NCBI GenBank assembly: GCA_965279525.1
Contig: CBDIIB010000004.1
Coordinates: 416,001 to 480,000 of the forward strand
Direction: 5' to 3'
DNA from: Tagaea sp.
Lineage (GTDB): Bacteria; Pseudomonadota; Alphaproteobacteria; CACIAM-22H2
Length of the DNA: 64,000 nt
The first letter of the stretch is position 1, and each line of letters begins with the position of its first letter. This document shows, piece by piece, positions 1 to 53,232 of this stretch. The notes beneath the pieces are model-generated. The model made no database searches. It was not told the DNA's origin and saw only the letters and a list, made by a program, of their open reading frames with translations. The position numbers and the translations under genes are program-made.

Positions 1-983
1 AGCGCATCGGCCGCACTGACCGTGACGCTGACCACGTCGCCGCGCGCGATGAGCCACTGTGCCGTGCCGCCGATCAGGCCGAGCAGGCGCTGCCCGCCGG
101 GCAGGGCCACCGGCCGGTCAAGCCGGTAATGGGCATTGACGATCGGCGACATGTCGCCCGGCGCACCGATATCCGGAACGAGGCGGGCAAGCGCATGCGG
201 CGGGACGGCAAGCACGACGCAGGACCGCCGGCAGTCGACCTCGGTGCCGGCGAAGGCGAGTGCTTCGACGCGGCCGCGCGCCACGCGCACGGCATCGAGC
301 GGCATGCCGCTTTCGACCGTCACGCCCGCTTTCGCGAGGGCGGCAAGGGCGGGATCGACGAAGGCACGCGACAGGCCGTTGGCCGCAACGAACGGCCGGC
401 ATGCCGCCTCTCCGCGCCCGAACGTGCGGGCCAGCATCGCGGCGAGGGGCCGCGCGGCCGCCTCGCGCGGATCGGTGTTGAGCACGGCGGTGGCGAGCGG
501 TTCCCACAGCGCCTTGTAGAGCGGGCCGTCGGGATCGAGCCGGTCGGCGACACGCGCCGTGTCGCCCGCGAAATAGAGCTGGAGCGCTTCCGAATAATCC
601 GCCGGCCGCGTCCCGGGCACGCGCCGGCCGGGCGCCATGATCCACCACGGGATCGGCCCGGCATTGGGCCGGATCGACCAGCGCTCGCCTGTGGCAAGAT
701 CAAGGAACGGAAAGGCGGCCGGCACGATGCCGACAAGCTCGTCGCGCGCCCCGATCCGGTCGAGATATCCGAACGCGTCGTCGTTGGACGAGAGGACGAC
801 GTGCCCGCCATTGTCGATCTCGCGGTCGAGCAGCGGGTCGTGGAATGACCGGCAGCGCCCGCCGAAATTGGGCGAGGCCTCGTAGAGCCGCACGCGCGCG
901 CCGCCATCCGACAGCGCCAGGGCGGCCGCGAGGCCGGCAAGCCCGCCGCCGACGACATGAACGTCGATCACCGGCTTGCCCAT
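1..983 (-). CDS. hpnE: Hydroxysqualene dehydroxylase HpnE (runs off the window start)
   Basis: Manual translation [67 protein letters not shown]: FAD GxGxxG, GGRCRS and DNGxH motifs; directly downstream of hpnD. Alternative GTG start at 971. Not in ORF track because truncated. Confidence 0.85.
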   Translation of the reverse strand, partial: MGKPVIDVHVVGGGLAGLAAALALSDGGARVRLYEASPNFGGRCRSFHDPLLDREIDNGGHVVLSSNDDAFGYLDRIGARDELVGIVPAAFPFLDLATGERWSIRPNAGPIPWWIMAPGRRVPGTRPADYSEALQLYFAGDTARVADRLDPDGPLYKALWEPLATAVLNTDPREAAARPLAAMLARTFGRGEAACRPFVAANGLSRAFVDPALAALAKAGVTVESGMPLDAVRVARGRVEALAFAGTEVDCRRSCVVLAVPPHALARLVPDIGAPGDMSPIVNAHYRLDRPVALPGGQRLLGLIGGTAQWLIARGDVVSVTVSAADA

Positions 984-1681
984 AGCCCGCGCATCACGGC
1001 ACCGGCCTTGTCGAATGCACCCAGACGCCCGCCGCCGGCGAGGATGCGGGCAAGCAGCGTTTCGTAGAGTTCGCCCATCACGATCGCCGGACGCAGGGCG
1101 GCCCGGTCGAGATGCGCCAGCATCGCGCGCGCCCGGCCAAGCGTGGCCCCGGCGCGGGCAGCGAAAGCATCGCGCGGCTCGGGCAGATAGTTCCGGCCGC
1201 GCGCGGCGTCCTCGTCGATGTCGCGCAGCACGTTGACGCGCTGCAACCCTTCGCCGAGCGTCAGCGCATAGGTCTGCGCCGCCTTGCCCGACGTGCCGAA
1301 GATCGGCAGCGCCAGCATCCCGATCGTGCCGGCCACGCGCCGGCAATAAAGGACGAACAGCGCTTCGTCGAAGACCTGCGGCTCGAGATCCATCAGCTGG
1401 CCGTCGATCAGCGCGTCGAGTTCGGCGCGCGGCAGGCCGAAGGATCGGGCATGCGGCTGGAAGGCGCGTGCGACCGGATGGCTCGGCACGCCTTCGTAAA
1501 TCGCGGCGACCTCGCGGCGCCAGTCGGCAAGACCCGCGCGCCTTTCCTCGACGGTGCCCGGGCCGTCGGCCACGTCGTCGATGGCGCGCGCGATGTCGTA
1601 GAGCGCGAACAGCGCTTCGCGCCGGGCCGCGGGCAGCAGCCGCATCGCCCAATAGAAGGTCGAGCGCCGCCGCGCACTCAC
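968..1681 (-). CDS. hpnD: Presqualene diphosphate synthase HpnD
   Basis: STFYWAMRLLP, DDVAD, YCRRVAG, LQRVNVLRDIDED motifs; lies between hpnC and hpnE. Confidence 0.88.
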   Translation of the reverse strand: MSARRRSTFYWAMRLLPAARREALFALYDIARAIDDVADGPGTVEERRAGLADWRREVAAIYEGVPSHPVARAFQPHARSFGLPRAELDALIDGQLMDLEPQVFDEALFVLYCRRVAGTIGMLALPIFGTSGKAAQTYALTLGEGLQRVNVLRDIDEDAARGRNYLPEPRDAFAARAGATLGRARAMLAHLDRAALRPAIVMGELYETLLARILAGGGRLGAFDKAGAVMRGLWASR

Positions 1682-2490
1682 GGCACGATCCCGGCGAGGA
1701 GGCCGCGCGCGAGCGCCAGTCCCTTGTCGAGCGGCCCCAGCGCCACGCGCGAAGCGAGCGGATCGCGCCGGCGCAGGGCGCGCGCCAGCCGGTGCGAGAT
1801 GTCGACGATCGCCGCCGTCTCCATGCGCAGGCGCCGGTCGCGGATCGAGGCCGCCAGCGGACGGGCCTGCGCGTTGAGCGCGTCGACGCGTTCGAGCACG
1901 CGGTCATAGACGGCGCGCAGCTTCGCCGACAGCGCGGGGCCGAGCAGGTCGCGTTCGGAAAGGCCGGCTTCGTCGAGCCACGATTTGGGGATGTAGAGAC
2001 GGTGCAGGTCGAGCCAGTCGCCGGCGGCATCCTGCAGATGGTTCTCGACCTGGAGGGCCGCGCACAGCGCGTCGGACGCGGGCCAAAGTGCCCGGTCCTC
2101 GCCATGCAGGTCGAGCAGGAAGCGCCCCACCGGGGCGGCCGAGAAGCGACAATAGGCGAGCAGGTCCGACCAGGTGCGGCACGGCCGGCTGCGCGCGTCG
2201 GCAAGGAAGGCCTGCAGGAGATGGCGCGGATGGTCGAGCGTCAGGCCGCGCCCGAGCAGCACGGCACGCAGGGCGAGCGCCTCGTCGGGGCCTTCGCTGC
2301 CGTCGGCGAGCGCGCGGTCGTGCGCTTCGAGCCGGGCGGTCTTGGTGGCTGCGTCGAGGGCCGGGTCGTCGGCGACGTCGTCGGCGGCGCGCGCGAAGCG
2401 GTAGAAGGCGTGCACGGCCGGCCGGTGTTCGCGCGCGACCAGCCAGGAGCCGACGGGGAAATTCTCGGTCGTTCGGGTCCGGGTGCTCAC
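1678..2490 (-). CDS. hpnC: Squalene synthase-family HpnC
   Basis: ENFPVGSWL, ADDVAD, YCRFSAAPVGR, LQVENHLQD motifs. Confidence 0.92.
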   Translation of the reverse strand: MSTRTRTTENFPVGSWLVAREHRPAVHAFYRFARAADDVADDPALDAATKTARLEAHDRALADGSEGPDEALALRAVLLGRGLTLDHPRHLLQAFLADARSRPCRTWSDLLAYCRFSAAPVGRFLLDLHGEDRALWPASDALCAALQVENHLQDAAGDWLDLHRLYIPKSWLDEAGLSERDLLGPALSAKLRAVYDRVLERVDALNAQARPLAASIRDRRLRMETAAIVDISHRLARALRRRDPLASRVALGPLDKGLALARGLLAGIVP

Positions 2491-2531
2491 GAAGATCGAT
2501 TCCGCTTGTGACAGGCTTTATATAGCACCGC

Positions 2532-3317
2532 ATGGACCCGGAAGCGCTCGCCGAAGCCCAGACCCTGCTGCGCCGCCACGACCCCGAACGCTGGCGCACG
2601 ACGCTGTTCGCCCCTGCCGGCCTGCGCGAGCGGCTGGTCGCACTCTATGCCTTCAATGTCGAGATCGCGCGCGTGCGCGAGACCGTATCGGAAGCGCTGC
2701 TCGGGCAGATCCGCCTGCAATGGTGGCGCGAGGCGCTGGCCGAGATCGCCGGCGGCGGCGGCGTGCGCCGACACCCGATCGTGCGCGCGATCGCCGACGC
2801 GAAGCTCGACATGGCCTTGCTGGGCAAGCTGGTCGACGCGCGCGAGCGCGATCTGGACGATACGCCCTTCGCCGATCTTGGCGAACTCGAAGCCCACGCC
2901 GCCGCCACATCGGGCGACCTTGCCGTCGCGGCGGGCGGCGAGGCGTGCCGCAATATCGGCACGGGCTACGGGCTTGCCGGTTCGCTGATCGCGTTGCCCC
3001 ATTTCTCGCGCCAGCGGCGCAACGTGTTGCCCGCGGATCTCGTGGCTGCGGCCGGCCTCACGCCCGAGATCATCCATGAGGGCAAGGCGGGTGCGTTGCT
3101 CGAAGCGGCGGTGATGCCCGTCGCCAAGCGCGCGCGCGAACTGCTGGAGCAGCACCGCGGCGTGCCGAAGCCCGTGGCGCTGCAGGGCACGCTCGCGAAG
3201 CTGTGGCTCGACCGGCTTCAACGCGCGAAGCACGATGCGTTCGCACCCTCGTTGCAGGCGCCGCATCCGGCGGACATCTGGCGGCTGTTCTTCGCCAACC
3301 TATTCGGCCGCTTCTGA
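2532..3317 (+). CDS. Phytoene/squalene synthase-family protein (NDUFAF6-like)
   Basis: [28 protein letters not shown] motifs; adjacent to trmFO. Confidence 0.85.
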
Positions 3318-38725: not shown

Positions 38726-40384
38726 TTGGCCGCCAGACGAAAAACCAAACGCACCGTCGCGTCGATGTACGAGGCCGACCTCGGCAAGGTCGCGGCGAAC
38801 CACGAGCCGCTGACGCCGATCTCGTTCCTGTTCCGCTCGGCCGCGGTCTATCCGCGCAAGGTCGCGGTCGTGCACGGGCGCGCGCGACATACCTACGCGC
38901 AGTTCGCCGCGCGCGTGCGCCGGTTCGCGGACGCGCTGGTCAAGAACGGCCTGAAGCGCGGCGAGACCGTCGCGGTGATGGCGCCCAACGTGCCGGCGAT
39001 GCTGGCGGCGCACTATGCCGTGCCGCTCGCCGGTGGCGTTCTCAACGCGCTGAACTATCGGCTCGACGCGGCGACGATCGCCTTCATCCTCGAACACGGG
39101 GCCGCCAAGATCCTGCTGGTCGACCGCGAGTTCGCGCCCACGGTCCAGGCGGCACTGGAGAAGGTGAAGAAGAAGCCGCTCGTGATCGACATCGACGACC
39201 GCGAATACAAGGGCGAGGGCCCGCGCCTGAGTGCGGTCGAGTACGAGGAATTCCTCAAGCAGGGGCGCCCGGACTATGAGGGCCGCTGGCCGACCGACGA
39301 ATGGCAGGCGATCTGCCTGCTCTACACGTCCGGCACCACGGGCGATCCCAAGGGCGTCGTCTACCATCACCGCGGCGCCTATCTCAACGCGCTGGGCAAC
39401 GCGCTGGCCTTCGGCGTGCGGCCCGACAGCGTCTATCTGTGGACGCTGCCGATGTTCCACTGCTCGGGCTGGAGCTATACGTGGGCGGTCACGGCGGTCG
39501 GCGGCACGCATGTCTGCCTGCGCCGCGTCGATCCGGCCCTCATCTTTCCGTCGATCCGCGACAATGGCGTGACGCACATGTGCGGGGCACCCATCGTGCT
39601 CAACACGCTGGCCCATGCACCCGCCGACGTGAAGCTTGCCTTGCCGCACCGGGTCGAGGTGATGACCGGCGGTGCCGCCCCGCCGTCGGCGATCATCGCG
39701 TCGATGGAGGCGATGGGTTTCCGCGTCACGCACGCCTACGGCCTGACCGAAAGCTACGGCCCCGCGACCTTGTGCGAGTGGCAGCCGGGCTGGCCCGACC
39801 TGCCCGTCGACGAGCGTGCAAGACTGATGGCGCGCCAGGGCGTGGGCTATCCCACGCTGGGCGCACTTGCGGTGCTCGACGCGAAGTCGAAGCCGGTCCC
39901 CGCCGACGGGCAGACGATGGGCGAGATCGCACTTCGCGGCAACACGGTGATGAAGGGCTATCTCAAGAACCCGAAGGCGACGCGCAAGGCGTTCAAGGGC
40001 GGCTGGTTCCGCACCGGCGATCTCGCCGTCCGACACCAGGACGGATACATCGAGGTCAAGGACCGCTCGAAGGACGTGATCATTTCCGGTGGCGAGAATA
40101 TTTCTTCCCTCGAGGTCGAGGAGGCGCTCTACCGGCACCCGGCCGTCATGGAAGCAGCCGTCGTCGCCAAGCCGGACGAGAAATGGGGCGAAACGCCCTG
40201 CGCCTTCATCACGCTGAAGCCCGGCGTGACGGGCATCAGCGGTGCGGAGATGATCGACTGGCTGCGCGGGCGCATCGCGCGGTACAAGTGTCCGCGCCAC
40301 GTCGTGTTCGGCGCGCTGCCCAAGACGTCGACCGGCAAGATCCAGAAATACGCGCTGCGCGCGCGGGCAAGGGAGATCGTTTGA
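38726..40384 (+). CDS. Acyl-CoA synthetase (LvaE-like)
   Basis: ANHEPLTPISFL, YTSGTTGDPKGVVYHHRGAYLNA, YLWTLPMFHC, LPKTSTGKIQK. Confidence 0.93.
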   Translation: MAARRKTKRTVASMYEADLGKVAANHEPLTPISFLFRSAAVYPRKVAVVHGRARHTYAQFAARVRRFADALVKNGLKRGETVAVMAPNVPAMLAAHYAVPLAGGVLNALNYRLDAATIAFILEHGAAKILLVDREFAPTVQAALEKVKKKPLVIDIDDREYKGEGPRLSAVEYEEFLKQGRPDYEGRWPTDEWQAICLLYTSGTTGDPKGVVYHHRGAYLNALGNALAFGVRPDSVYLWTLPMFHCSGWSYTWAVTAVGGTHVCLRRVDPALIFPSIRDNGVTHMCGAPIVLNTLAHAPADVKLALPHRVEVMTGGAAPPSAIIASMEAMGFRVTHAYGLTESYGPATLCEWQPGWPDLPVDERARLMARQGVGYPTLGALAVLDAKSKPVPADGQTMGEIALRGNTVMKGYLKNPKATRKAFKGGWFRTGDLAVRHQDGYIEVKDRSKDVIISGGENISSLEVEEALYRHPAVMEAAVVAKPDEKWGETPCAFITLKPGVTGISGAEMIDWLRGRIARYKCPRHVVFGALPKTSTGKIQKYALRARAREIV

Positions 40385-44344: not shown

Positions 44345-45487
44345 CTACCAGCCGTTGACGCGGTCCCAGACGGCGACGATCTCGTCGTTGCCGTCGACCA
44401 CGTGGTAACGCGGGTACATCGCCGACGTCATGCAGACGTGGTTGGGCATCACGAGCACGCGCCTGCCGACCGGCCAGTCGGCAAAGGGCAGGGGATCGAT
44501 GGCATCCAGCCCGCGCCGCGCCGACAGGATGCCGTGCTCCTGATGGACGTCGAGCACGGCGAGATCCTCGCGCGGGCACGCCTGCCCGGGATCGCGGATC
44601 AATCCGTAGCCGACATTGTCGATGCGCCGGTTGGCGCCGGTGTCCTTGGACAGCGCCAGAGCACCGGCGTCGAGCAGCAGATGGTTGCGCCCGCGATGAT
44701 GCCCGATGACCGAGGCGAGCACCCCGACCGCGATGTCCTCGGCCCCGCACATGCCCAGCCCGTGCTGGAAAAGATCGAAGAACACGAAGTTTCCGGGGCG
44801 CATCTCGGTCACGCCCCGCAGATGGCGCGCATGCAGGGCCGTTGGGGTGGAGCCAACGCTGACATGATCGAACGCATGGCCCTTGGTGCGCAGGAACTCG
44901 GCTGCCTCGACCACGCCGGCCCGCTCGGCTTCGGCCACGTCCTCGATCTCGGCGATCCCGTCGCAACCATAGGAATGGCCAGCATGCGCCATCACGCCCG
45001 CGAGCATGCCTGCGGGGCCGAGGGCGGCCGCGATGGCGGCAAGCTCCGGCGAGCGCGGATCGACGCCGGCCCGCCCGCCGCCGGTCTCGATTTCGACGAC
45101 CGCAGCGAAGCGCACGCCGAGGGCCGCGCCACGCGCGACGATGGCGCGCGCGGCGTCGACATCGTCGGTCAGGATCTTGAGGGCAGGGGCCGCGCGCATG
45201 AGTCCGGCGACCCGGTCGAGCTTGGCGGGCGCGATCGCGACCGCGTAGAGCATGTCGGTGAAGCCGGCCTTGGCGAAATACTCGCCCTCGGCGAGCGTCG
45301 AGACGGTGATCGGCCCCGGCTGCCCGCCATGGACGGCCAGGGCGACTTCGGCGGACTTCGCCGTCTTCATGTGCGGGCGCAGCGTCACGCCCAGTTCCTT
45401 CGCACGTGCCTGCATGCGCGCCACGTTGCGCATCAGCCGCGAACGGTCGAGGACGAGGGACGGGGTCGGGAGATCGGCCAGACGCAT
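44345..45487 (-). CDS. Fold-type III PLP enzyme (D-threonine aldolase / DSD1 family)
   Basis: RPHMKTAK, HAGHSY, GSTPT, HQEHG, PNHVC. Confidence 0.9.
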   Translation of the reverse strand: MRLADLPTPSLVLDRSRLMRNVARMQARAKELGVTLRPHMKTAKSAEVALAVHGGQPGPITVSTLAEGEYFAKAGFTDMLYAVAIAPAKLDRVAGLMRAAPALKILTDDVDAARAIVARGAALGVRFAAVVEIETGGGRAGVDPRSPELAAIAAALGPAGMLAGVMAHAGHSYGCDGIAEIEDVAEAERAGVVEAAEFLRTKGHAFDHVSVGSTPTALHARHLRGVTEMRPGNFVFFDLFQHGLGMCGAEDIAVGVLASVIGHHRGRNHLLLDAGALALSKDTGANRRIDNVGYGLIRDPGQACPREDLAVLDVHQEHGILSARRGLDAIDPLPFADWPVGRRVLVMPNHVCMTSAMYPRYHVVDGNDEIVAVWDRVNGW

Positions 45488-45501
45488 CGGCCGGCGAGGG
45501 C

Positions 45502-46749
45502 CTAGCGTGCCGGCGGGGTCGCCGGCATCATCGCGCGCATCAGCGCGTCGACATGCCAGCCCTGGAACATGCGGATGCCGACAGCCTGGCCGAGTTCGAA
45601 GGCCATCGGCGTCTCGCAGCGCCCCATGATGATGCGGTTGATGTCGGCTTCCGCCAGCATCGCCGCGAGACCCTTCATGCGCCAGTCTTCCGCATGGTCC
45701 TTGAAGAAGAAGAGCTTGACCAGATCGGCGCGCAGTTCCGAGCGACGGAAGAACGTCAGCGTGTCGGGCGTCAGTCCGTCGAGCAGCGAGCGGTAGCCGG
45801 CCTTCTGCAGCGTGTCGACGGCACGGTTGTAGGCCTCGAAGTCGGCGAACACGTCGTGGCGCGCGATCTCGATGATGATGTTGCCCTTGGCGATGAACGA
45901 GCCGATGCGCTGGTCGAACTCGCGGAAGCGGTCCGAAAGGATCGTGTCGACGTTGAGATTGATCGAGATGTTGCCCGCGGTCTTCGTCAGGAACCCTTCG
46001 GAAAGTGCGCGCAGCAGCCGGGTGTCGAACGTGCGCGTCATCATCTGGAAGAGGCCGCGCTGGCCGCGCATGTTGACGCGCGGCTGCAGCAGGTTGCGCG
46101 TGTCGTTGACGCTGAAATAGTACTCGCGGAAGATCGGGCGCAGCTGGTTGGCGGTCAGCGCGATCGAGATGGGCTGGTTGCGCAGCAGCGTCTTGGCGTC
46201 GGCCTTGCCGAACGCTTCGTCGAGCGCGCCAAGCACGGCAGGCGTCAGCGTCTGGAAACTCTGGCCGTAGGCCGGGCCTGCGGCTGCACCGGCACGCTGC
46301 ATGGCGCGCAGCCGGGCTTCCTGCTGGCTCTTCTGTTCCTCGAGTGCCGCCTTCGCATAGTCGTAGAAATCGGGGAACTGCGTTTCGAAGCTGTACCAGG
46401 AGCAGGCTTCCTCGATGTTCTCGTCGGGCATCCCGGTCGCCACGGAATGGCGGCGCAGCAGGTCGTCGAGCTCGGTGACGATGCTTTCGAACTGCTGGGG
46501 ATTGTCGACGCGGAACACGAAGACGATGTCGAAATTCGCGAGCGAATAGATCGTGCCTTCGGCGCGCTGCACCATCTCGCGGATGGCGTGAAAGATGACG
46601 TAATAGTTCTCGCGCCGGCGGTTGAACCACGCCTGCCGCTGCATGGAAATGACGACGGACATGCGCGGGACGGTATTGCCCGTGCGCTTGATCCGATCAA
46701 GATCGGAAAGAAGCGTTTCCTCGTCCGTCCGCTGCGGCGTCGTGTCCAT
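45502..46749 (-). CDS. Degenerate EAL-domain protein
   Basis: QPI..., EYY in place of EAL, ISINLN, IIIEI, LLDGL in place of DDFGTG, CET, MFQGW. Confidence 0.7.
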   Translation of the reverse strand: MDTTPQRTDEETLLSDLDRIKRTGNTVPRMSVVISMQRQAWFNRRRENYYVIFHAIREMVQRAEGTIYSLANFDIVFVFRVDNPQQFESIVTELDDLLRRHSVATGMPDENIEEACSWYSFETQFPDFYDYAKAALEEQKSQQEARLRAMQRAGAAAGPAYGQSFQTLTPAVLGALDEAFGKADAKTLLRNQPISIALTANQLRPIFREYYFSVNDTRNLLQPRVNMRGQRGLFQMMTRTFDTRLLRALSEGFLTKTAGNISINLNVDTILSDRFREFDQRIGSFIAKGNIIIEIARHDVFADFEAYNRAVDTLQKAGYRSLLDGLTPDTLTFFRRSELRADLVKLFFFKDHAEDWRMKGLAAMLAEADINRIIMGRCETPMAFELGQAVGIRMFQGWHVDALMRAMMPATPPAR

Positions 46750-46977
46750 CTACCGTCCTTGTCCGTCGAGTCCGATTCTACCCGCGAGACTCATGTTTTG
46801 TAACGGATATTCCGTATTACATGGGATTCGGGCCGACCGGCAACCACAGCCCGGTCTGGGGATATCCCGATCCGGCCGGACAATACGGAACGGACAGGGT
46901 ACAGGGGGTAGGTCCTTGCCCGGCCGATGCCCGCGAATATGGCACCAAGTTGGTGGATTCCGATCCCGAGCCGCCGC

Positions 46978-48243
46978 TCAAGCGGTCGCAAGGCGATCGC
47001 GTCCGCCTGATTTCGCGTCATAGAGTGCTGTATCGGCCCGCTTGACCAGCGCGTCGACCGACGCGATGTCCGGCGTGAACGATGCCGTACCGATGCTGAC
47101 CGTTAGCGCGATCTTGCCGCCGGACACGGCGAACGGCGTTGTACGGACTGCGGCTAATATCCGCTCTGCCACGACAGCGGAAGGCTCCGCCGGCGTCTCC
47201 GGCATCAGCACAAGGAACTCCTCGCCGCCCCAGCGTGCGACCATGTCGACGCCACGTAGCTGCGCGCGCAGAAGCCGCGCCAGCTCCTGGAGCACGGCGT
47301 CGCCGGCATCGTGGCCATAGGTGTCGTTGACCTTCTTGAAGTGGTCGATGTCGATCATCATCACGGTCGCCGGGCTCGCGTAGCGCTTGTGGCGGTCGAA
47401 GGCCTCGGCCAGCCGCTCGGTCGCATGGCGCCGGTTGAAGGTGCCGGTCAGCGGGTCGGTGGTGGCCAGACGCAGGAGCTCGTCCTGCCGGTCCTTCTGT
47501 TCGCTGATGTCGCGGGAGATGACGACGAAGCCGGTCACGTTCCCGTCCTTGTCGGGAAGTGCCGTCACGACCGCATCGCCCCAGTAGACGCTGCCGTCCT
47601 TGCGCACGCGCCGGCCCTCGATCTCGACCGATCCGCGTCGCGAAGCGCGGGTCAGGACCTGTCCGGACGCATTGGCGTCGAACTCGGTCGGCGGGAAGAA
47701 AACCGAGACGTGCTTGCCGACGACGTCTTCGGCCGTCCATCCGCCGAGGCGATAGAGCGTGCGGTTCCAGTCGACGATCCGCCCCTCGAGGTCGAGCGTG
47801 TAGATCGCGTAGTCCTGGATCTGTTCGAATATCGCGCGGAACCGCTGCTGGTCCTCGTGGATCCGGCGTTCCTTCAGGGCCGCTTCGGTCACGTCCTGGA
47901 TCACGGCCATGAATGTCGGGCGGGCGATCCGGTTTACCGTCATCGACAGGACGCGCTGGCGCGGCCCCGCACCCGTCGATACGAGCCGCTGTTCGAACAG
48001 CATGCCCGCTTCGGCCTCGAAGTCGCGCACGAGGACCGGCAGTTCGGGAACCCAGTCGGACAGGACGGAGAAGAGGTTCGCCAGTTCCGAGTCGTGCGAC
48101 AGCGGCATCAGGAGCTGGGCGGCGAGCGGATTGACCATGTCGATGCGGCCGTCGGGCGCGAATTTCACGATCCCGACCGGGCAAAGATAGAAGAACTGGA
48201 GAAGCTCCTCGTGCGCCCGTGCAAGATCGTCCCGGTCGCTCAC
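46978..48243 (-). CDS. PAS-PAS-GGDEF diguanylate cyclase
   Basis: TDPLTGTFNRR, DIDHFKKVNDTYGHDAGD, I-site RGVD, GGEEF, ADTALYDAKSGGR; PAS/PAC RKDGSVYW. Confidence 0.95.
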   Translation of the reverse strand: MSDRDDLARAHEELLQFFYLCPVGIVKFAPDGRIDMVNPLAAQLLMPLSHDSELANLFSVLSDWVPELPVLVRDFEAEAGMLFEQRLVSTGAGPRQRVLSMTVNRIARPTFMAVIQDVTEAALKERRIHEDQQRFRAIFEQIQDYAIYTLDLEGRIVDWNRTLYRLGGWTAEDVVGKHVSVFFPPTEFDANASGQVLTRASRRGSVEIEGRRVRKDGSVYWGDAVVTALPDKDGNVTGFVVISRDISEQKDRQDELLRLATTDPLTGTFNRRHATERLAEAFDRHKRYASPATVMMIDIDHFKKVNDTYGHDAGDAVLQELARLLRAQLRGVDMVARWGGEEFLVLMPETPAEPSAVVAERILAAVRTTPFAVSGGKIALTVSIGTASFTPDIASVDALVKRADTALYDAKSGGRDRLATA

Positions 48244-48650
48244 GATGCGCGCACCGCCAGATACATCGAACGCGCGCCCGGCCGCTTGAGCATCCGCAGC
48301 TCCACCTTTCGCGGTTTCATGCGCAGCGTGAAGACGTAGTCGATCGTCCGGTCGAGGACCGTCTCGACCTCATAGCAATGGGAGACCATGAAATTGTTGG
48401 TGCACGGAGCGACAGCCGAGAAAAAGTGCCGTCCGATCACCCGGTCCTTGGCGAGACCGGACATCGCCGATTCCGAATTGTTGTAGCCGACGACGACGCC
48501 ATCGGCCGCCATCGCGATGACGCCGAATTCCAGGGCGTCGAGCCCGTCCGCGTCGAGCGTCTCGAGGACATCGATCAGGTCCGGCATTTCGAACCTTATG
48601 CCGCCCGCATCTGCCACGCTTCCCCCGACTTGTTTGGTGCCGACCTCCAT
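48240..48650 (-). CDS. pyp: Photoactive yellow protein (PYP) homolog
   Basis: LDALEFGVI, YNNSE, VIGRHFFSAVAPCT, YVFTLRMKP align with H. halophila PYP. Confidence 0.85.
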   Translation of the reverse strand: MEVGTKQVGGSVADAGGIRFEMPDLIDVLETLDADGLDALEFGVIAMAADGVVVGYNNSESAMSGLAKDRVIGRHFFSAVAPCTNNFMVSHCYEVETVLDRTIDYVFTLRMKPRKVELRMLKRPGARSMYLAVRAS

Positions 48651-48665
48651 CTTCGGGGGCGGAAA

Positions 48666-48681
48666 GTTTACAATCGATTAA
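48666..48681 (-). promoter_or_regulatory. CtrA-like box upstream of pyp
   Basis: Minus strand TTAA-TCGATTG-TAAAC, 15 nt upstream of the pyp ATG. Confidence 0.55.
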
Positions 48682-48700
48682 GACTGCGAACCGCTGGCGG

Positions 48701-49429
48701 CTACGGTACGGCTTTGCCCAACGGTCCATATATCCCTGCGAACGGCTTGCCCGACTTTACGTCGTCCATCAGTTTCAGGAGTGCGGGCTTGCCGTTCCTT
48801 TGCAGCCACGCCCGGATTTCGGCGGACGCTTGGCAATAGGTCGGCCGGAGGCGGGACCGGTCGTTCGTATATTGACCCCATGCATTCCCGCCCGAAAGCC
48901 TGGAGAGATCGTCGATGCCGTTTGCGGTCACGCCCGCACAGTCGGGCTCCCCGGACATGTAGACCGCGACACCCTCGTGAAACCAGGTCGGGGCACGGCC
49001 CGTGCCGAAGCGCGCATGGTGTTCGATATGGCTGAATTCATGCACGAGCACGTTCTCGGCAATGGGTCCCTCGCGGACGATCACGACGGTCGGACGCGGA
49101 GCCCGATAGCTTCCTCCCGGCCCGATGCTTCCGGTACCCAACGCCCTCGACCGGATATCCGGACCGGAGAAATGGATCGAACAGGCCTGCGTCTTGCAGA
49201 AGACGACATCCGGATCGGCAGACCTTTGCTCGCCGTAGAACTCGACGAGGCGGCGCTTTGCCCGTCCGACCATCGAGATGAGTCCGGCATGTTCGAACCT
49301 GCCGTACGCGGGGTCGGCATAGATTGCGTCGCCGATCTTCATCGGTGACATGTCGGTGTAGTCGATCGCACACCCGCACAACGCGAACGCCATTGCGAGA
49401 ATGCCGCAGTTTCGCAAACCCGATTCCAT
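48701..49429 (-). CDS. Putative lipoprotein gluzincin metallopeptidase (peptidase MA-like)
   Basis: Lipobox-like ALCGC; HEFSH followed by PTWFHEGVA; less GC-biased than flanks. Confidence 0.75.
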   Translation of the reverse strand: MESGLRNCGILAMAFALCGCAIDYTDMSPMKIGDAIYADPAYGRFEHAGLISMVGRAKRRLVEFYGEQRSADPDVVFCKTQACSIHFSGPDIRSRALGTGSIGPGGSYRAPRPTVVIVREGPIAENVLVHEFSHIEHHARFGTGRAPTWFHEGVAVYMSGEPDCAGVTANGIDDLSRLSGGNAWGQYTNDRSRLRPTYCQASAEIRAWLQRNGKPALLKLMDDVKSGKPFAGIYGPLGKAVP

Positions 49430-49591
49430 GTTGAATCTTTCGCATGTTGTTGATTGTATGTACTGACGGAGATGCGTTCTGAAATTGTGTCTTTCGATAG
49501 CATCGGGAATGCCGATGCGAAAGCGCGAATTCGACTTCGGAGATCCAGGCCGCGAGGGACCCGGCCGGAGACAAGGCATCGACGATGGAAA

Positions 49592-49681
49592 TGGCGGACG
49601 GGGTGAGATTCGAACTCACGGTAGGCTTGCACCTACGGCGGTTTTCAAGACCGCTGCCTTAAACCACTCGGCCACCCGTCC
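49592..49681 (-). tRNA. tRNA-Ser (UGA)
   Basis: 90 nt: GGACGGGTGGCCGAGTGGTTTAAGGCAGCGGTCTTGAAAACCGC..., long variable arm, TTCGAAT, 3' GCCA. Confidence 0.97.
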
Positions 49682-49955
49682 TGCAGGGTTGCCGTTATAC
49701 TCAGGCCCGATCCGGGATGCCAGAAACCGTTCTTATTGCCGTCGCGGCGACCGAGGACGGAAATGTACGCCATCCGGCGCTTCGCGGTTGCGTTCGTCCC
49801 GGATTAAGTATGCTGTGGTTGCCGGCATCACGTTTGGAAAATGTCAGGTCATCATTCGTTAATCTGCGCGGGCAATAGTGTCGCCGTCCTGTCGACCGTG
49901 ACTCGAGAAAGCAAGACATGTCAGCCATTCGGCCGTTCCTTTGCCGGCGGACCTC

Positions 49956-51008
<1,053 letters not shown>

Positions 51009-51940: not shown

Positions 51941-52035
51941 GGAGCCGAATAAAACAAAGGGTCTGGATGACCCTGCCTGCTGGCGACGCACGACGCGGCT
52001 GACTGGGCGGCGGCGGGCGGCTATATCCTGCGTTT

Positions 52036-52518
52036 ATGACGCTGACGATTCGCCCCGCGATACCGGCCGACGCCGCCGAACTCGCCGACCTGATCAACGA
52101 GATCATCCAAATCGGCGGCACGACCGCTTGGGAAACCGAATTCACGCCCGACTACTTCGTCGAGCATTACATCGCGGGCGAAGGCTGCCTCACCTGCTTC
52201 GTGGCGCAGGCCGACCGGCTCTACGGTTTTCAAGCGTTGGGCCGCAACAAGGAATTGCCGACGGATTGGGGCGATATCGGCAGCTTCGCCCGCATTCGGC
52301 CGAAAATGCCCGGCGTGGGGGCCGCCTTGTTCGTGGCGACCATGGCCAAGGCGCGTGAACTGGGCCTCGTCGCGATCAACGCCCAGATCCGCGCCGACAA
52401 CAAATCCGGACTCGGCTTCTATTCGAAGATGGGATTCGTCGATTACGGTGTGAAGAAAGCCCTGCCGCTGAAGGACGGCACGAAGATCGACCGCATCCTG
52501 AAGCGTTACGATCTTTAG
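52036..52518 (+). CDS. GNAT acetyltransferase
   Basis: IRPA, GVGAALF, IRADN..GLGFYSKMGF. Confidence 0.9.
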   Translation: MTLTIRPAIPADAAELADLINEIIQIGGTTAWETEFTPDYFVEHYIAGEGCLTCFVAQADRLYGFQALGRNKELPTDWGDIGSFARIRPKMPGVGAALFVATMAKARELGLVAINAQIRADNKSGLGFYSKMGFVDYGVKKALPLKDGTKIDRILKRYDL

Positions 52519-52560
52519 CGTCCCCTTGCCTGAAGCCGATGCAGGCTAAAGTGCGTGACT

Positions 52561-53232
52561 TCAGTCGTGCCCACTTTCACCCGCTACGGCACGCCAGTCG
52601 CGCAGCATCGCGGCGTCGGGCTTCCGGTTCCAGAAATCGACGCGCACCGACGACGGCGACGCAAGGCTGATTCCGCAGCACGATCCTGTCGCCACACCGA
52701 GCTTGGCGCCGGCGACTGCGGCAGAGAACCACGCGGCATCCAGTTTCGCGAAATAGCGCAGGATCCCCTGTGAACTGCAGAGTACGGGCACGATGCGGCC
52801 GTCGCCGGCGGCAAGCTCGCGCACGAGCTCGCCGGCACCGCGCTCCAGCGTGTCGGGATCCGGCGACCAGCCCTGGCCGACCGGCCACACACAGCGGCGG
52901 TTCCAGGCTTCGAGTGTATCGGCGCCGGCGGTCGCGGCGATGTCGGCGTCCGTCCGGCCTTCCCAAGTTCCATAGTCAATTTCGCGCAGGCTGTCCTCGA
53001 TGCGCGGGACGAAGCCGAAGCCGTGCGTGACGAAGGCGCGCGTGCGCTGGAGAGGCCCCGCCAGAAACGGCCCGGCGGCCATGCCGGAACCGCGCACCGC
53101 TTCGGCGAAAGTCGTGGCCTGTGCGAAGCCCTTGGCCGTCAGCGGAATGTCCGAGCGCGAACCGACGCGCACGACCGGGGCGCCGTCCTCGAACGTGTTG
53201 CCGTGTCGCACGAGAAGGACGCGGCGCATCAC
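52561..53232 (-). CDS. Histidine phosphatase (phosphoglycerate mutase-like) family
   Basis: LVRHGNT, PLQRT, LREIDYGTWEG. Confidence 0.88.
   Translation of the reverse strand: MMRRVLLVRHGNTFEDGAPVVRVGSRSDIPLTAKGFAQATTFAEAVRGSGMAAGPFLAGPLQRTRAFVTHGFGFVPRIEDSLREIDYGTWEGRTDADIAATAGADTLEAWNRRCVWPVGQGWSPDPDTLERGAGELVRELAAGDGRIVPVLCSSQGILRYFAKLDAAWFSAAVAGAKLGVATGSCCGISLASPSSVRVDFWNRKPDAAMLRDWRAVAGESGHD

What the first reader, a model, noticed from the sequence alone, without database searches (positions are those of the whole stretch)
46978..48681. Stand-alone PYP homolog coupled to a PAS-PAS diguanylate cyclase: candidate light-to-c-di-GMP module
Seen: the pyp stop overlaps the cyclase start (GTGA, 48240-48243). 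By manual alignment to Halorhodospira halophila PYP, the protein keeps Y42, E46, C69 (VAPCT), F96 and M100, with T50S and R52L. The cyclase has an intact GGEEF and an RxxD I-site, and an unusual first PAS-like domain (LLQFFYLCPVGIVKF). Inference: PYP signals in trans to the cyclase N-terminal PAS domain. Output partners of free PYPs are poorly characterised, so this is a defined sensor-effector pair to test.
Basis: partly seen in the sequence, partly recalled or inferred. Interest (0 to 1): 0.75.

Follow-up and report, generated by a model that had tools for sequence, protein, structure and literature searches.

The report
Photoactive yellow protein paired with cyclase
A small light-sensor-type protein (a photoactive yellow protein relative) is encoded back-to-back with a c-di-GMP-making enzyme; this pairing is already in print, but the enzyme's unnamed first domain follows such sensors almost everywhere and is a good candidate for their docking site.

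Summary
On the minus strand, a 125-136 aa PYP homolog (48240-48650) overlaps by GTGA the start of a 421 aa PAS-PAS-GGDEF cyclase (46978-48243). Y42, E46, C69, F96 and M100 equivalents are kept, with T50S and R52L. GGEEF and an RxxD site are intact.

The pairing is not new. The protein belongs to "clade C" PYPs, which two papers already report next to GGDEF genes: PMC9664959, and PMC12826048 with GGDEF in 29 of 113 pyp operons. No clade C member has been characterised.

What I add is the cyclase's first 125 residues ("dgcN"). They form a divergent PAS fold that gave no Pfam-A match.
- dgcN follows the pyp gene in 78 of 80 related genome loci from 7 phyla.
- The output behind it varies: GGDEF, histidine kinase, SpoIIE phosphatase or unassigned.
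- All 14 plasmid records with dgcN have pyp directly upstream.
- One database protein fuses PYP-dgcN-PAS-GGDEF in a single chain.

So dgcN is the likely PYP receiver. Chromophore binding, light response and physical binding remain untested. No TAL or pCL gene lies in the window.

Verdict: a new member of a known kind, with a useful testable refinement.

The parts
48240..48650 (-). pyp: clade C photoactive-yellow-protein homolog. 136 aa from ATG 48650; 125 aa if the GTG at 48617 is the start.
   Evidence: ORF. TIGR02373 72.5 bits, below the 143.05 cut-off. PDB PYP chains at E 1e-15 to 1e-13. AF2 model pLDDT 86.4 superposes on PYP crystal structures at TM 0.86-0.90, rmsd 1.8 A. 61% identical to Rhodopila globiformis WP_104519964.1, which PMC9664959 Data Set S3 places in clade C.
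48402..48404 (-). Codon of Cys83, the equivalent of Cys69, which is the thioester attachment site of p-coumaric acid in PYP.
   Evidence: Alignment. Invariant in 35 of 35 aligned homologs, as are Y56 (Y42) and E60 (E46). Coordinates.
48240..48243 (-). GTGA: the pyp stop (TGA) overlaps the cyclase start (GTG), which suggests translational coupling.
   Evidence: A candidate start 4 nt into the pyp stop occurs in 22 of 77 related loci, and a 1-nt overlap in 6 of 77.
46978..48243 (-). Diguanylate cyclase, 421 aa, with architecture dgcN-PAS-GGDEF.
   Evidence: PleD GGDEF domain E 2e-37.
47869..48243 (-). dgcN: cyclase residues 1-125, a divergent PAS fold with a long N-terminal helix. Proposed PYP-receiver domain.
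   Evidence: No Pfam family at E<=1. AF2 pLDDT 90.2 with PAS topology. Foldseek finds only generic PAS matches, TM 0.5-0.6. My own profile matches at E 6.7e-45, and this is the only copy in the 64 kb window.
47494..47844 (-). Second PAS domain (residues 134-250), an ordinary PAS S-box.
   Evidence: Pfam PAS_9, PAS and PAS_4 at 57-59 bits. TIGR00229 101 bits.
46993..47466 (-). GGDEF catalytic domain (residues 260-417). GGEEF lies at 47215-47229 and the RxxD I-site (RGVD) at 47245-47256.
   Evidence: Pfam GGDEF 164.3 bits over the full-length profile. Motif positions.
45502..46749 (-). Downstream 415 aa gene with a weak, degenerate EAL-like C-terminus, separated from the cyclase by a 228 nt gap. 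It may belong to the same c-di-GMP circuit, but its membership is uncertain.
   Evidence: Pfam EAL 30.8 bits, just under the 31.3 cut-off. No PDB hit. Atlas neighbours are 'putative EAL domain-containing protein' clusters. Conserved with the pair in the Tagaea MAG L001 only.

Best explanation
This is a two-gene light-to-c-di-GMP module of the clade C PYP type.

Proposed mechanism, step by step:
1. The small protein is a true PYP-family member. It most likely carries thioester-linked p-coumaric acid on Cys83, hydrogen-bonded by Tyr56 and Glu60, and undergoes a blue-light photocycle. (Inferred from conserved residues and fold.)
2. It is made together with the cyclase through a 4-nt stop/start overlap. 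(Shown in the sequence.)
3. It acts on the cyclase by docking to dgcN, the cyclase's first domain. dgcN is a divergent PAS domain dedicated to this kind of PYP. (Inferred from co-inheritance across outputs and from a natural fusion.)
4. Light-driven change in the PYP alters the PYP:dgcN contact. This alters the arrangement of the cyclase dimer and so the rate at which the GGEEF domains make c-di-GMP. (Inferred; the sign is unknown.)
5. The RxxD site adds product feedback. (Inferred from established knowledge of GGDEF enzymes, recalled.)
For: PYP identity:
- Y42, E46 and C69 equivalents are invariant in 35 of 35 aligned homologs.
- The fold matches PYP crystal structures at TM 0.86-0.90, against about 0.55 for other PAS domains.
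- A 61%-identical relative is listed as clade C with a PAS_9:GGDEF neighbour.

Chromophore supply, within 6 kb of the 80 related loci:
- A pCL-like gene occurs in 11 of 80.
- A TAL-like gene occurs in 3 of 80.
- In Indioceanicola one operon reads pyp-pcl-ammonia lyase-clade C pyp-GGDEF.

Coupling to dgcN:
- dgcN starts -8 to +83 nt after the pyp stop in 76 of 77 loci found by tblastn.
- My profile raises the count to 78 of 80 loci, from 7 phyla.
- Outputs behind dgcN are GGDEF in 57 loci, histidine kinase in 4, SpoIIE in 3, PAS plus an unassigned tail in 7, other or short in 3, and truncated in 4.
- All 96 strong profile hits in the 80 loci (E<1e-5) are accounted for by the first or second dgcN copies that one search places on the pyp strand downstream of pyp. 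No other PAS domain was hit.
- Reverse test: 14 of 14 plasmid records with dgcN have a pyp hit directly upstream.
- Fusions: P0188 is PYP(13-129)-dgcN(144-262)-PAS-GGDEF, and P0264 is a PYP-dgcN fragment. That is 2 of 148 representatives.
- The dgcN family is small: 1025 of 1.84 billion representatives at E<=1e-3. The domain sits at the extreme N-terminus in nearly all of the 150 listed.

Cyclase competence: GGEEF, RxxD, and a full-length GGDEF match.
Against: - No clade C PYP has been characterised (PMC9664959, passages).
- The protein scores 72.5 bits against a 143.05 cut-off for the curated PYP model.
- No TAL or pCL gene lies in the 64 kb window. The one AMP-binding enzyme is a PRK08162-type acyl-CoA synthetase next to an acyl-CoA dehydrogenase.
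- Gene adjacency, overlap and fusion show a functional link, not physical binding or light dependence.
- Operon neighbours are co-inherited in any case, and my 80 loci were chosen through pyp.
- The reverse test rests on only 14 plasmids.
- 2 of 80 loci (L036, L060) have the PYP without dgcN.
- The fusion proteins come from unannotated metagenome predictions and could be read-through artefacts. The fused ORF in L001 clearly is one.
Confidence: 0.55

Rival explanations
1. The PYP homolog is a working photoreceptor and is co-expressed with the cyclase, but it does not dock on dgcN. It signals to another target, while dgcN is simply a dimerisation domain or an independent ligand-sensing PAS domain of the cyclase.
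For: - PAS domains commonly mediate homodimerisation (general knowledge).
- Foldseek shows only generic PAS similarity for dgcN.
- In Betaproteobacterial loci a second dgcN-GGDEF gene follows the first without its own pyp, so dgcN copies outnumber PYPs there.
- Other signalling genes sit nearby, including a histidine kinase at 49941-51008.
Against: - A generic dimerisation or sensing PAS would not be confined to pyp operons. Yet 78 of 80 loci and 14 of 14 plasmid records pair it with pyp.
- It persists while the output domain changes.
- It is fused directly behind PYP in P0188.
Confidence: 0.2
2. The small protein is PYP-like in fold but is not a p-coumaric-acid light sensor in this organism. 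It may bind another ligand, or act as a chromophore-free (for example thiol/redox-sensitive) regulatory subunit of the cyclase.
For: - It falls below the curated TIGR02373 cut-off.
- There is no TAL or pCL in the window.
- 69 of 80 related loci have no pCL-like gene within 6 kb.
- PMC9664959 notes possible redox sensing in some PYP variants, and that clade C is uncharacterised (passages).
- NCBI's pipeline does not name these proteins PYP. It calls them 'PAS domain-containing', 'phosphonate transporter' or 'hypothetical'.
Against: - The three chromophore-binding residues are invariant in 35 of 35 homologs.
- Clade C pyp sits inside a pyp-pcl-lyase operon in Indioceanicola, and next to pCL or a canonical pyp in several Burkholderiales loci.
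- Most canonical pyp genes also lack adjacent TAL or pCL: about 10% and 30% adjacency in PMC9664959, and 5% and 32% of operons in PMC12826048.
Confidence: 0.2
3. The adjacency has no functional meaning; two unrelated signalling genes happen to overlap.
For: Short gene overlaps are common in GC-rich bacteria (general knowledge).
Against: The same pair recurs across 7 phyla in 78 of 80 loci and is fused in P0188.
Confidence: 0.03

Closest known systems
Clade C PYP homologs with adjacent GGDEF genes (Xing, Gumerov and Zhulin 2022, PMC9664959; Dohmen et al. 2025, PMC12826048)
   Same: - Stand-alone PYP homolog of about 120-130 aa with Y42, E46, C69 and conserved Met100, and with F92 and W119 lost.
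- Scores 'photo_yellow (< cutoff)'.
- Followed on the same strand, often with a few nt of overlap, by a 'PAS-GGDEF' protein of about 420-430 aa.
- The Rhodopila globiformis member (my locus L011) is 61% identical to the window protein and is listed as clade C with a PAS_9:GGDEF neighbour.
   Different: - The window organism is a Tagaea-like alphaproteobacterium not listed there ('Tagaea' gave 0 hits in both supplements).
- F96 is retained here, whereas clade C is said to have lost its conservation.
- I found no mention of the conserved N-terminal domain of the partner in either paper. I searched both main texts, and in the Dohmen supplement I searched 'N-terminal', 'unknown domain' and 'SpoIIE'.
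Idiomarina loihiensis PYP with neighbouring GGDEF protein (known to me only as cited in PMC9664959 and PMC12826048)
   Same: A free PYP proposed to act on an adjacent GGDEF protein to put biofilm formation under blue-light control.
   Different: That PYP is clade A and close to H. halophila PYP in its properties. Whether its partner carries dgcN was not tested here.
Ppd of Thermochromatium tepidum (PYP-bacteriophytochrome-GGDEF/EAL)
   Same: PYP input linked to c-di-GMP turnover.
   Different: Ppd is a single chain with a phytochrome between PYP and the output, and its PYP is clade A. Here the genes are separate and a dedicated PAS domain takes the place of the phytochrome.
Rhodobacter capsulatus Rc-PYP and its PYP-binding protein PBP (bioRxiv 10.1101/2021.06.01.446672, passages read)
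   Same: A free PYP binds a protein encoded by the neighbouring gene. PBP is 142 aa, dimeric, and predicted to have N-terminal helices followed by beta sheet, which resembles the dgcN topology.
   Different: PBP has no output domain, and binding is triggered by UV. I could not obtain the PBP sequence, so homology with dgcN is untested. A dgcN-profile search among 66-249 aa proteins returned 15 hits; only 4 carried a source name, and none of those names was Rhodobacter.
Halorhodospira halophila PYP (the prototype)
   Same: Fold including the N-terminal cap, plus Y42, E46, C69, F96 and M100.
   Different: About 30% identity, with G47S, T50S, R52L, D97T, Y98L and W119Y. There is no pcl or tal beside it, and it has a defined candidate partner.

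Membership tests
Photoactive yellow protein family | Cys69 equivalent for thioester linkage of the chromophore | tested here: met
   C83 in VAPCT aligns with C69. It is invariant in 35 of 35 homologs.
Photoactive yellow protein family | Tyr42 and Glu46 equivalents that hydrogen-bond the chromophore | tested here: met
   Y56 and E60, both invariant in the 35-sequence alignment.
Photoactive yellow protein family | PYP fold: a PAS core plus an N-terminal helical cap | tested here: met
   AF2 pLDDT 86.4. Foldseek to PYP crystal structures gives TM 0.86-0.90 and rmsd 1.8 A over 122 residues; the next other PAS domains reach about 0.55-0.6.
Photoactive yellow protein family | Score above the curated NCBIfam TIGR02373 (photo_yellow) equivalog cut-off | tested here: not met
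   72.5 bits against a 143.05 cut-off. The same holds for clade C as a whole ('photo_yellow (< cutoff)' in PMC9664959 Data Set S3), so the model is narrower than the family as the literature defines it.
Photoactive yellow protein family | Covalently bound p-coumaric acid, yellow absorbance and a photocycle | not testable with these tools
   This needs protein and spectroscopy. No clade C member has been characterised.
Photoactive yellow protein family | Chromophore-supply genes (TAL, pCL) available | tested here: inconclusive
   None lie in the 64 kb window, and the rest of the genome is unseen. A pCL-like gene lies within 6 kb in 11 of 80 related loci.
Clade C of the PYP family (Xing et al. 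2022) | Groups with listed clade C members; Met100 conserved; F92 and W119 not conserved | tested here: met
   - 61% identity to a listed clade C protein.
- Placed in a weakly supported 58-row group (SH-aLRT 70) that also holds that protein. The Burkholderiales homologs are split between this group and the other 23-row group.
- M111 kept, F92 is Ile, W119 is Tyr.
- F96 is kept, which departs from the clade description.
- I did not place the protein on their tree.
GGDEF diguanylate cyclase | Full GGDEF domain with an intact GG[D/E]EF active-site motif | tested here: met
   PF00990 164.3 bits over profile positions 1-161 of 161. GGEEF at 339-343.
GGDEF diguanylate cyclase | RxxD inhibitory site five residues upstream of the active-site motif (the spacing rule is recalled) | tested here: met
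   RGVD at 330-333.
GGDEF diguanylate cyclase | c-di-GMP synthesis from GTP | not testable with these tools
   Needs an enzyme assay.
Published pyp-GGDEF operon type | pyp directly upstream of a PAS-GGDEF gene on the same strand, close or overlapping | tested here: met
   The GTGA overlap matches entries such as 'PYP (130 aa) ... PAS-GGDEF (426 aa), -3' in the PMC12826048 supplement.
dgcN domain family (defined here) | Match to the profile built from 47 pyp-adjacent N-terminal domains, at the protein's N-terminus, directly after pyp | tested here: met
   E 6.7e-45. Note that the window sequence is one of the 47 sequences in the profile. Independent support: 38-52% identity to the domain in other phyla at E 1e-19 to 1e-34.
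Rc-PYP binding protein (PBP) family | Sequence homology to R. capsulatus RCAP_rcc01067 | not tested

The most novel reading that the evidence does not exclude
dgcN is a dedicated PYP-receiver module. It would be a small, so far unnamed PAS family (about 1000 representative clusters) whose job is to bind clade C PYP. Through it, one free photoreceptor would plug into diguanylate cyclases, histidine kinases and PP2C/SpoIIE phosphatases in at least seven phyla. That would be the first general, sequence-definable downstream partner for free PYPs.
Probability: 0.5. Interest if true: 0.7.

Novelty: new member of a known kind. Interest (0 to 1): 0.45.

Why it matters
PYP is one of the best-studied photoreceptors in biophysics. 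Yet its signalling partners are still called unknown or poorly understood in the recent literature (PMC9664959; PMC12826048; PMC13250908, abstract seen in a search listing only).

The window pair adds one more alphaproteobacterial example of a published operon type. The wider result matters more: the partner always begins with the same unnamed PAS domain, whatever its output. This narrows the search for the PYP contact surface to about 120 residues. It can be tested with two small soluble proteins.

If confirmed, the pair could also serve as a compact two-component, light-controlled c-di-GMP tool.

Tried and rejected
- Word-indexed protein searches with dgcN returned only 15 and 9 hits and gave no useful picture of architectures. 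The exhaustive profile search replaced them.
- Link between dgcN and the R. capsulatus PYP-binding protein: this could not be tested because no sequence was available.
- Promoter and terminator scan of 45300-49800: 1 promoter-like site against 0.6 expected, and 3 terminator-like sites against 3.3 expected. This is not informative.
- The EAL-like neighbour: no PDB sequence hit and no BLASTP similarity to the Caballeronia EAL protein. Its role stays open.
- The C-terminal 140 aa of the ~370 aa dgcN-PAS proteins of Acetobacteraceae: only a marginal PDB match to a GGDEF protein, E 0.95. It is left unassigned.
- Output switches on a PYP tree: 6 changes on the best tree, with 3 the minimum possible. 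However, 36 of 78 inner branches are unresolved and the well-supported branches force only one origin per class, so I do not claim a number of independent swaps.
- LOV-type photochemistry in the second PAS: rejected. There is only a weak generic YtvA-family hit (3.3e-7 against a 250-bit cut-off).
- The Tagaea MAG fusion (L001) as a Rosetta-stone argument: rejected. An 8-bp deletion shifts the frame and removes the last conserved PYP strand.
Full report
**What is there.**

The window is GC-rich (66.9% G+C). It carries ordinary chromosomal genes such as uvrA, ssb, gyrA, recG, mfd and ppk. It is collinear at 86-90% nucleotide identity with a contig of a Tagaea sp. MAG (Rhodospirillales).

On the minus strand lie two overlapping ORFs:
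- pyp at 48240..48650, 136 aa from the ATG.
- A cyclase at 46978..48243, 421 aa from a GTG.

The plus strand reads TCAC at 48240-48243. The pyp start is uncertain. A GTG at 48617 preceded by GGGGGAAG would give a 125 aa protein, and database relatives come in both lengths.

**The small protein is a PYP-family member.**

HMMER against the PDB finds only PYP chains at the top: the Ppr PYP domain 1mzu at 1.2e-15, and H. halophila PYP variants at about 1e-13.

The printed alignment shows what is kept and what is changed:
- Kept: Y42=Y56, E46=E60, C69=C83, F96=F107, M100=M111.
- Changed: T50=S64, R52=L66, and also G47S, D97T, Y98L, F92I and W119Y.

An AlphaFold2 model built on 35 homologs (pLDDT 86.4) superposes on PYP crystal structures with TM 0.86-0.90 and rmsd 1.8 A over 122 residues. 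The best non-PYP PAS domains reach only about 0.55-0.6.

The curated NCBIfam PYP model is matched below its cut-off (72.5 against 143.05 bits).

A search of 5.8 billion clustered proteins gave 261 relatives at E<=1e-3 among 309 candidates. The 120 listed are mostly 120-130 aa and about 55-68% identical to the query. Some sources name them 'photoactive yellow protein' and others 'PAS domain-containing protein'. In an alignment of 35 of them, Y56, E60 and C83 are invariant and L66 is nearly so.

**It is already a described kind.**

Xing, Gumerov and Zhulin (PMC9664959; passages and supplements read) split 789 PYP homologs into clades A, B and C. They report the following for clade C:
- It is mostly proteobacterial.
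- It keeps Met100 and has lost F92, F96 and W119 conservation.
- It has no characterised member.
- It is 'often found adjacent to' GGDEF proteins.

Their Data Set S3 lists Rhodopila globiformis WP_104519964.1 as clade C, 'photo_yellow (< cutoff)', with a PAS_9:GGDEF neighbour. That protein is the one in my locus L011. It is 61% identical to the window protein.

Dohmen et al. (PMC12826048; abstract, sections 4 and 5, passages and supplements read) collected 984 homologs and 113 predicted pyp operons.
- GGDEF lies downstream in 29 operons.
- Their supplement lists, for example, a 130 aa 'phosphonate transporter (PYP)' overlapping by 3 nt (their count) a 426 aa 'PAS-GGDEF'.
- They give Ser47, Leu49, Ala50, Leu52 and Thr97 as family consensus.

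So R52L, G47S and D97T are the rule, not oddities. Ser50 occurs in the characterised R. centenum and S. ruber PYPs, which have blue-shifted absorbance.

**The cyclase.**

Pfam finds a full GGDEF domain (164.3 bits, residues 260-417) and one ordinary PAS (134-250). It finds nothing in residues 1-125. GGEEF is at 339-343, and RGVD five residues upstream fits the RxxD I-site (the spacing rule is recalled). The catalytic domain resembles PleD (E 2e-37).

**The first 125 residues (dgcN) are the interesting part.**

*Fold and family.*
- Scanned alone, the window's dgcN matches no Pfam family even at E<=1. Only 7 of 47 relatives weakly touch PAS_8.
- AlphaFold2 on 47 relatives gives a confident model (pLDDT 90.2) with a long N-terminal helix and PAS topology.
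- Foldseek finds only generic PAS domains such as NifL, WalK and LOV-HK, at TM 0.5-0.6.
- The language-model atlas also points to PAS clusters.

*Forward synteny.* I scanned one genome per species of GTDB with the PYP alignment. 463 of 475 matched stretches encode a relative, and the best 80 loci were kept.
- tblastn with dgcN finds it in 77 of the 80. In 76 of them it begins -8 to +83 nt after the pyp stop. The 77th is the fused L001.
- A profile built from the 47 domains adds L023, giving 78 of 80. L036 and L060 have none.
- The loci come from Pseudomonadota (alpha, beta, gamma), Myxococcota, Actinomycetota, Acidobacteriota, Gemmatimonadota, Spirochaetota and Vulcanimicrobiota/Eremiobacterota (record titles).

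*Start codons.* A start codon overlapping the pyp stop by 4 nt is available in 22 of 77 loci, and by 1 nt in 6. Some candidate start lies within 20 nt in 71. I picked the candidate nearest the stop, which favours small gaps.

*Variable output.* What follows dgcN varies:
- (PAS-)GGDEF in 57 loci.
- HisKA/HATPase histidine kinases in 4 (L033, L059, L069, L077).
- SpoIIE-type phosphatases in 3 (L050, L061, L067).
- A PAS plus an unassigned tail in 7 Acetobacteraceae loci.
- Short or broken ORFs in 3.
- Cut off by the contig end in 4.

*Specificity.* The profile made 96 strong hits (E<1e-5) across the 80 loci. These are accounted for by the first and second dgcN copies that one search places on the pyp strand downstream of pyp. 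The many other PAS domains in those roughly 750 kb were not hit. The window has exactly one copy.

*Reverse direction.* A tblastn of dgcN against 72,556 plasmids found 14 records. In all 14, a PYP hit lies directly upstream. 13 can be read from the two tables. The Caballeronia SBC2 case was confirmed from its annotation and by BLASTP at 51% identity.

*Family size.* An exhaustive profile search of 1.84 billion representatives found 1025 proteins at E<=1e-3, 641 at 1e-10 and 135 at 1e-30. The domain sits at the extreme N-terminus in nearly all of the 150 listed. I scanned the 86 of those 150 that are at least 300 aa long and left out the 64 shorter ones as likely fragments. Of the 86, 57 carry GGDEF, 16 HATPase_c, 10 HisKA, 10 EAL, 5 a receiver domain and 1 a phytochrome.

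*Natural fusions.* Two of 148 representatives also carry a strong PYP domain in front of dgcN:
- P0188 (558 aa) reads PYP(13-129)-linker-dgcN(144-262)-PAS-GGDEF, with its PYP last strand intact.
- P0264 is a fragment of the same kind.

*Not in print, as far as I searched.* I found no mention of this domain in either paper. The searches were:
- PMC9664959 main text: 'N-terminal', 'partner', 'binds', 'coevol'.
- PMC12826048 main text: 'SpoIIE', 'PP2C', 'phosphatase', 'PAS domain', 'interact'.
- PMC12826048 supplement: 'N-terminal', 'unknown domain', 'SpoIIE'.
- Library searches.

**Chromophore supply.**

The window holds no aromatic ammonia lyase. Its only AMP-binding enzyme (38726-40384) is a PRK08162-type acyl-CoA synthetase beside an acyl-CoA dehydrogenase. 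tblastn with the Indioceanicola pcl and lyase found nothing in the window.

Within 6 kb of the 80 loci:
- A pCL-like gene occurs in 11.
- A TAL-like gene occurs in 3.
- A canonical PYP occurs in 4. In the three where a pCL-like hit lies right beside it (L054, L062, L071), that gene rather than dgcN is its neighbour.

In Indioceanicola profundi, one overlapping operon reads pyp-pcl-aromatic ammonia lyase-clade C pyp-GGDEF. In Caballeronia SBC2 the clade C pyp-cyclase-EAL cluster abuts a pCL-canonical pyp pair. This favours p-coumaric acid as the clade C chromophore. It does not prove it for this organism, because the rest of the genome is unseen.

**How it most likely works.**

- Shown: the residues, the folds, the overlap, the synteny and the fusion.
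- Inferred: the PYP binds p-coumaric acid at C83 and photocycles. It contacts dgcN. Light changes that contact and hence the geometry of the cyclase dimer and its output. RxxD gives product inhibition.
- Unknown: the sign of the light effect, and whether the complex forms in the dark or in the light.

The only experimentally shown case of a free PYP binding a neighbour-encoded protein is Rc-PYP with PBP. PBP is a 142 aa dimer with predicted N-terminal helices and beta sheet (bioRxiv 10.1101/2021.06.01.446672, passages read). Whether PBP is a stand-alone dgcN relative could not be tested.

**Rivals.**

1. The PYP is active but signals elsewhere, and dgcN only dimerises or senses something else. 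This is weakened because dgcN is confined to pyp operons.
2. The protein is PYP-like but is not a p-coumaric-acid light sensor here. This is kept alive by the missing TAL and pCL and by the lack of any characterised clade C member.
3. The adjacency is chance. This is essentially excluded.

**What stayed unchecked.**

- The complex predictor was unavailable.
- bioRxiv supplements, which hold the PBP sequence, were closed.
- Only one genome scan was allowed, so the reverse association rests on plasmids.

Noticed in passing
window 45502-46749 (-): A 415 aa protein lies 228 nt downstream of the cyclase. It has a degenerate EAL-like C-terminus: Pfam EAL 30.8 bits, just under the 31.3 cut-off. It has no PDB relative. 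It belongs to large clusters of ~410-424 aa proteobacterial 'putative EAL domain-containing' proteins of unknown role. It could be a c-di-GMP effector or an inactive phosphodiesterase working with the cyclase.
   Followed up: partly
window 48688-49591, ORF 48701-49579 (-): About 900 nt holding a 292 aa ORF sit exactly between the 3' end of tRNA-Ser(TGA) (49592-49681) and pyp. The ORF has an HExxH motif, a lipoprotein-like N-terminus and a weak peptidase-MA hit. This stretch is absent from the otherwise collinear Tagaea MAG locus L001. The 48.5-50 kb stretch also has lower G+C (0.59-0.60, against 0.67 for the window). It looks like a small insertion beside a tRNA gene.
   Followed up: partly
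L001 6340-6400 (Tagaea sp. MAG): Relative to the window, an 8-bp deletion near the 3' end of pyp puts it in frame with the cyclase. This gives a 555 aa fused ORF that lacks the last conserved PYP strand. It is probably an assembly error or a broken gene, not a functional fusion.
   Followed up: yes
plasmid records (e.g. L081 3109-3477): NCBI's annotation names many clade C PYP homologs 'phosphonate transporter', and others 'PAS domain-containing protein' or 'hypothetical protein'. The transporter name looks like a propagated misannotation of a 120-130 aa soluble PAS protein.
   Followed up: no
L051-L054, L062, L070, L071, L073-L076, L078, L080; L033; L034, L044: Three kinds of extra dgcN copy appear:
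- Many Betaproteobacterial loci carry a second dgcN-bearing gene right after the first cyclase, without its own pyp. In most of them it has a more divergent GGDEF.
- L033 has two dgcN domains in tandem in one hybrid histidine kinase.
- L034 and L044 carry two successive pyp-dgcN modules.
   Followed up: partly
P0202 (1216 aa representative): A bacteriophytochrome-PAS-GGDEF protein carries an internal dgcN domain at 842-966, followed by a second GGDEF. It is the only dgcN seen behind a phytochrome.
   Followed up: no
window 49941-51008 (+): A 355 aa HisKA/HATPase histidine kinase is transcribed divergently from the tRNA-Ser/pyp side. It is conserved in the same position in L001. Any link to the pyp module is unknown.
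   Followed up: no
window 968-3317: Three adjacent squalene/phytoene-synthase-family ORFs lie at 968-1681 (-), 1678-2490 (-) and 2532-3317 (+). The last overlaps a minus-strand ORF at 2487-3266, so the strand assignment there is ambiguous.
   Followed up: no
window 51941-52593: About 650 nt holding a 160 aa ORF (52036-52518, +; no Pfam family at E<=1e-5) are absent from the collinear Tagaea MAG locus.
   Followed up: no
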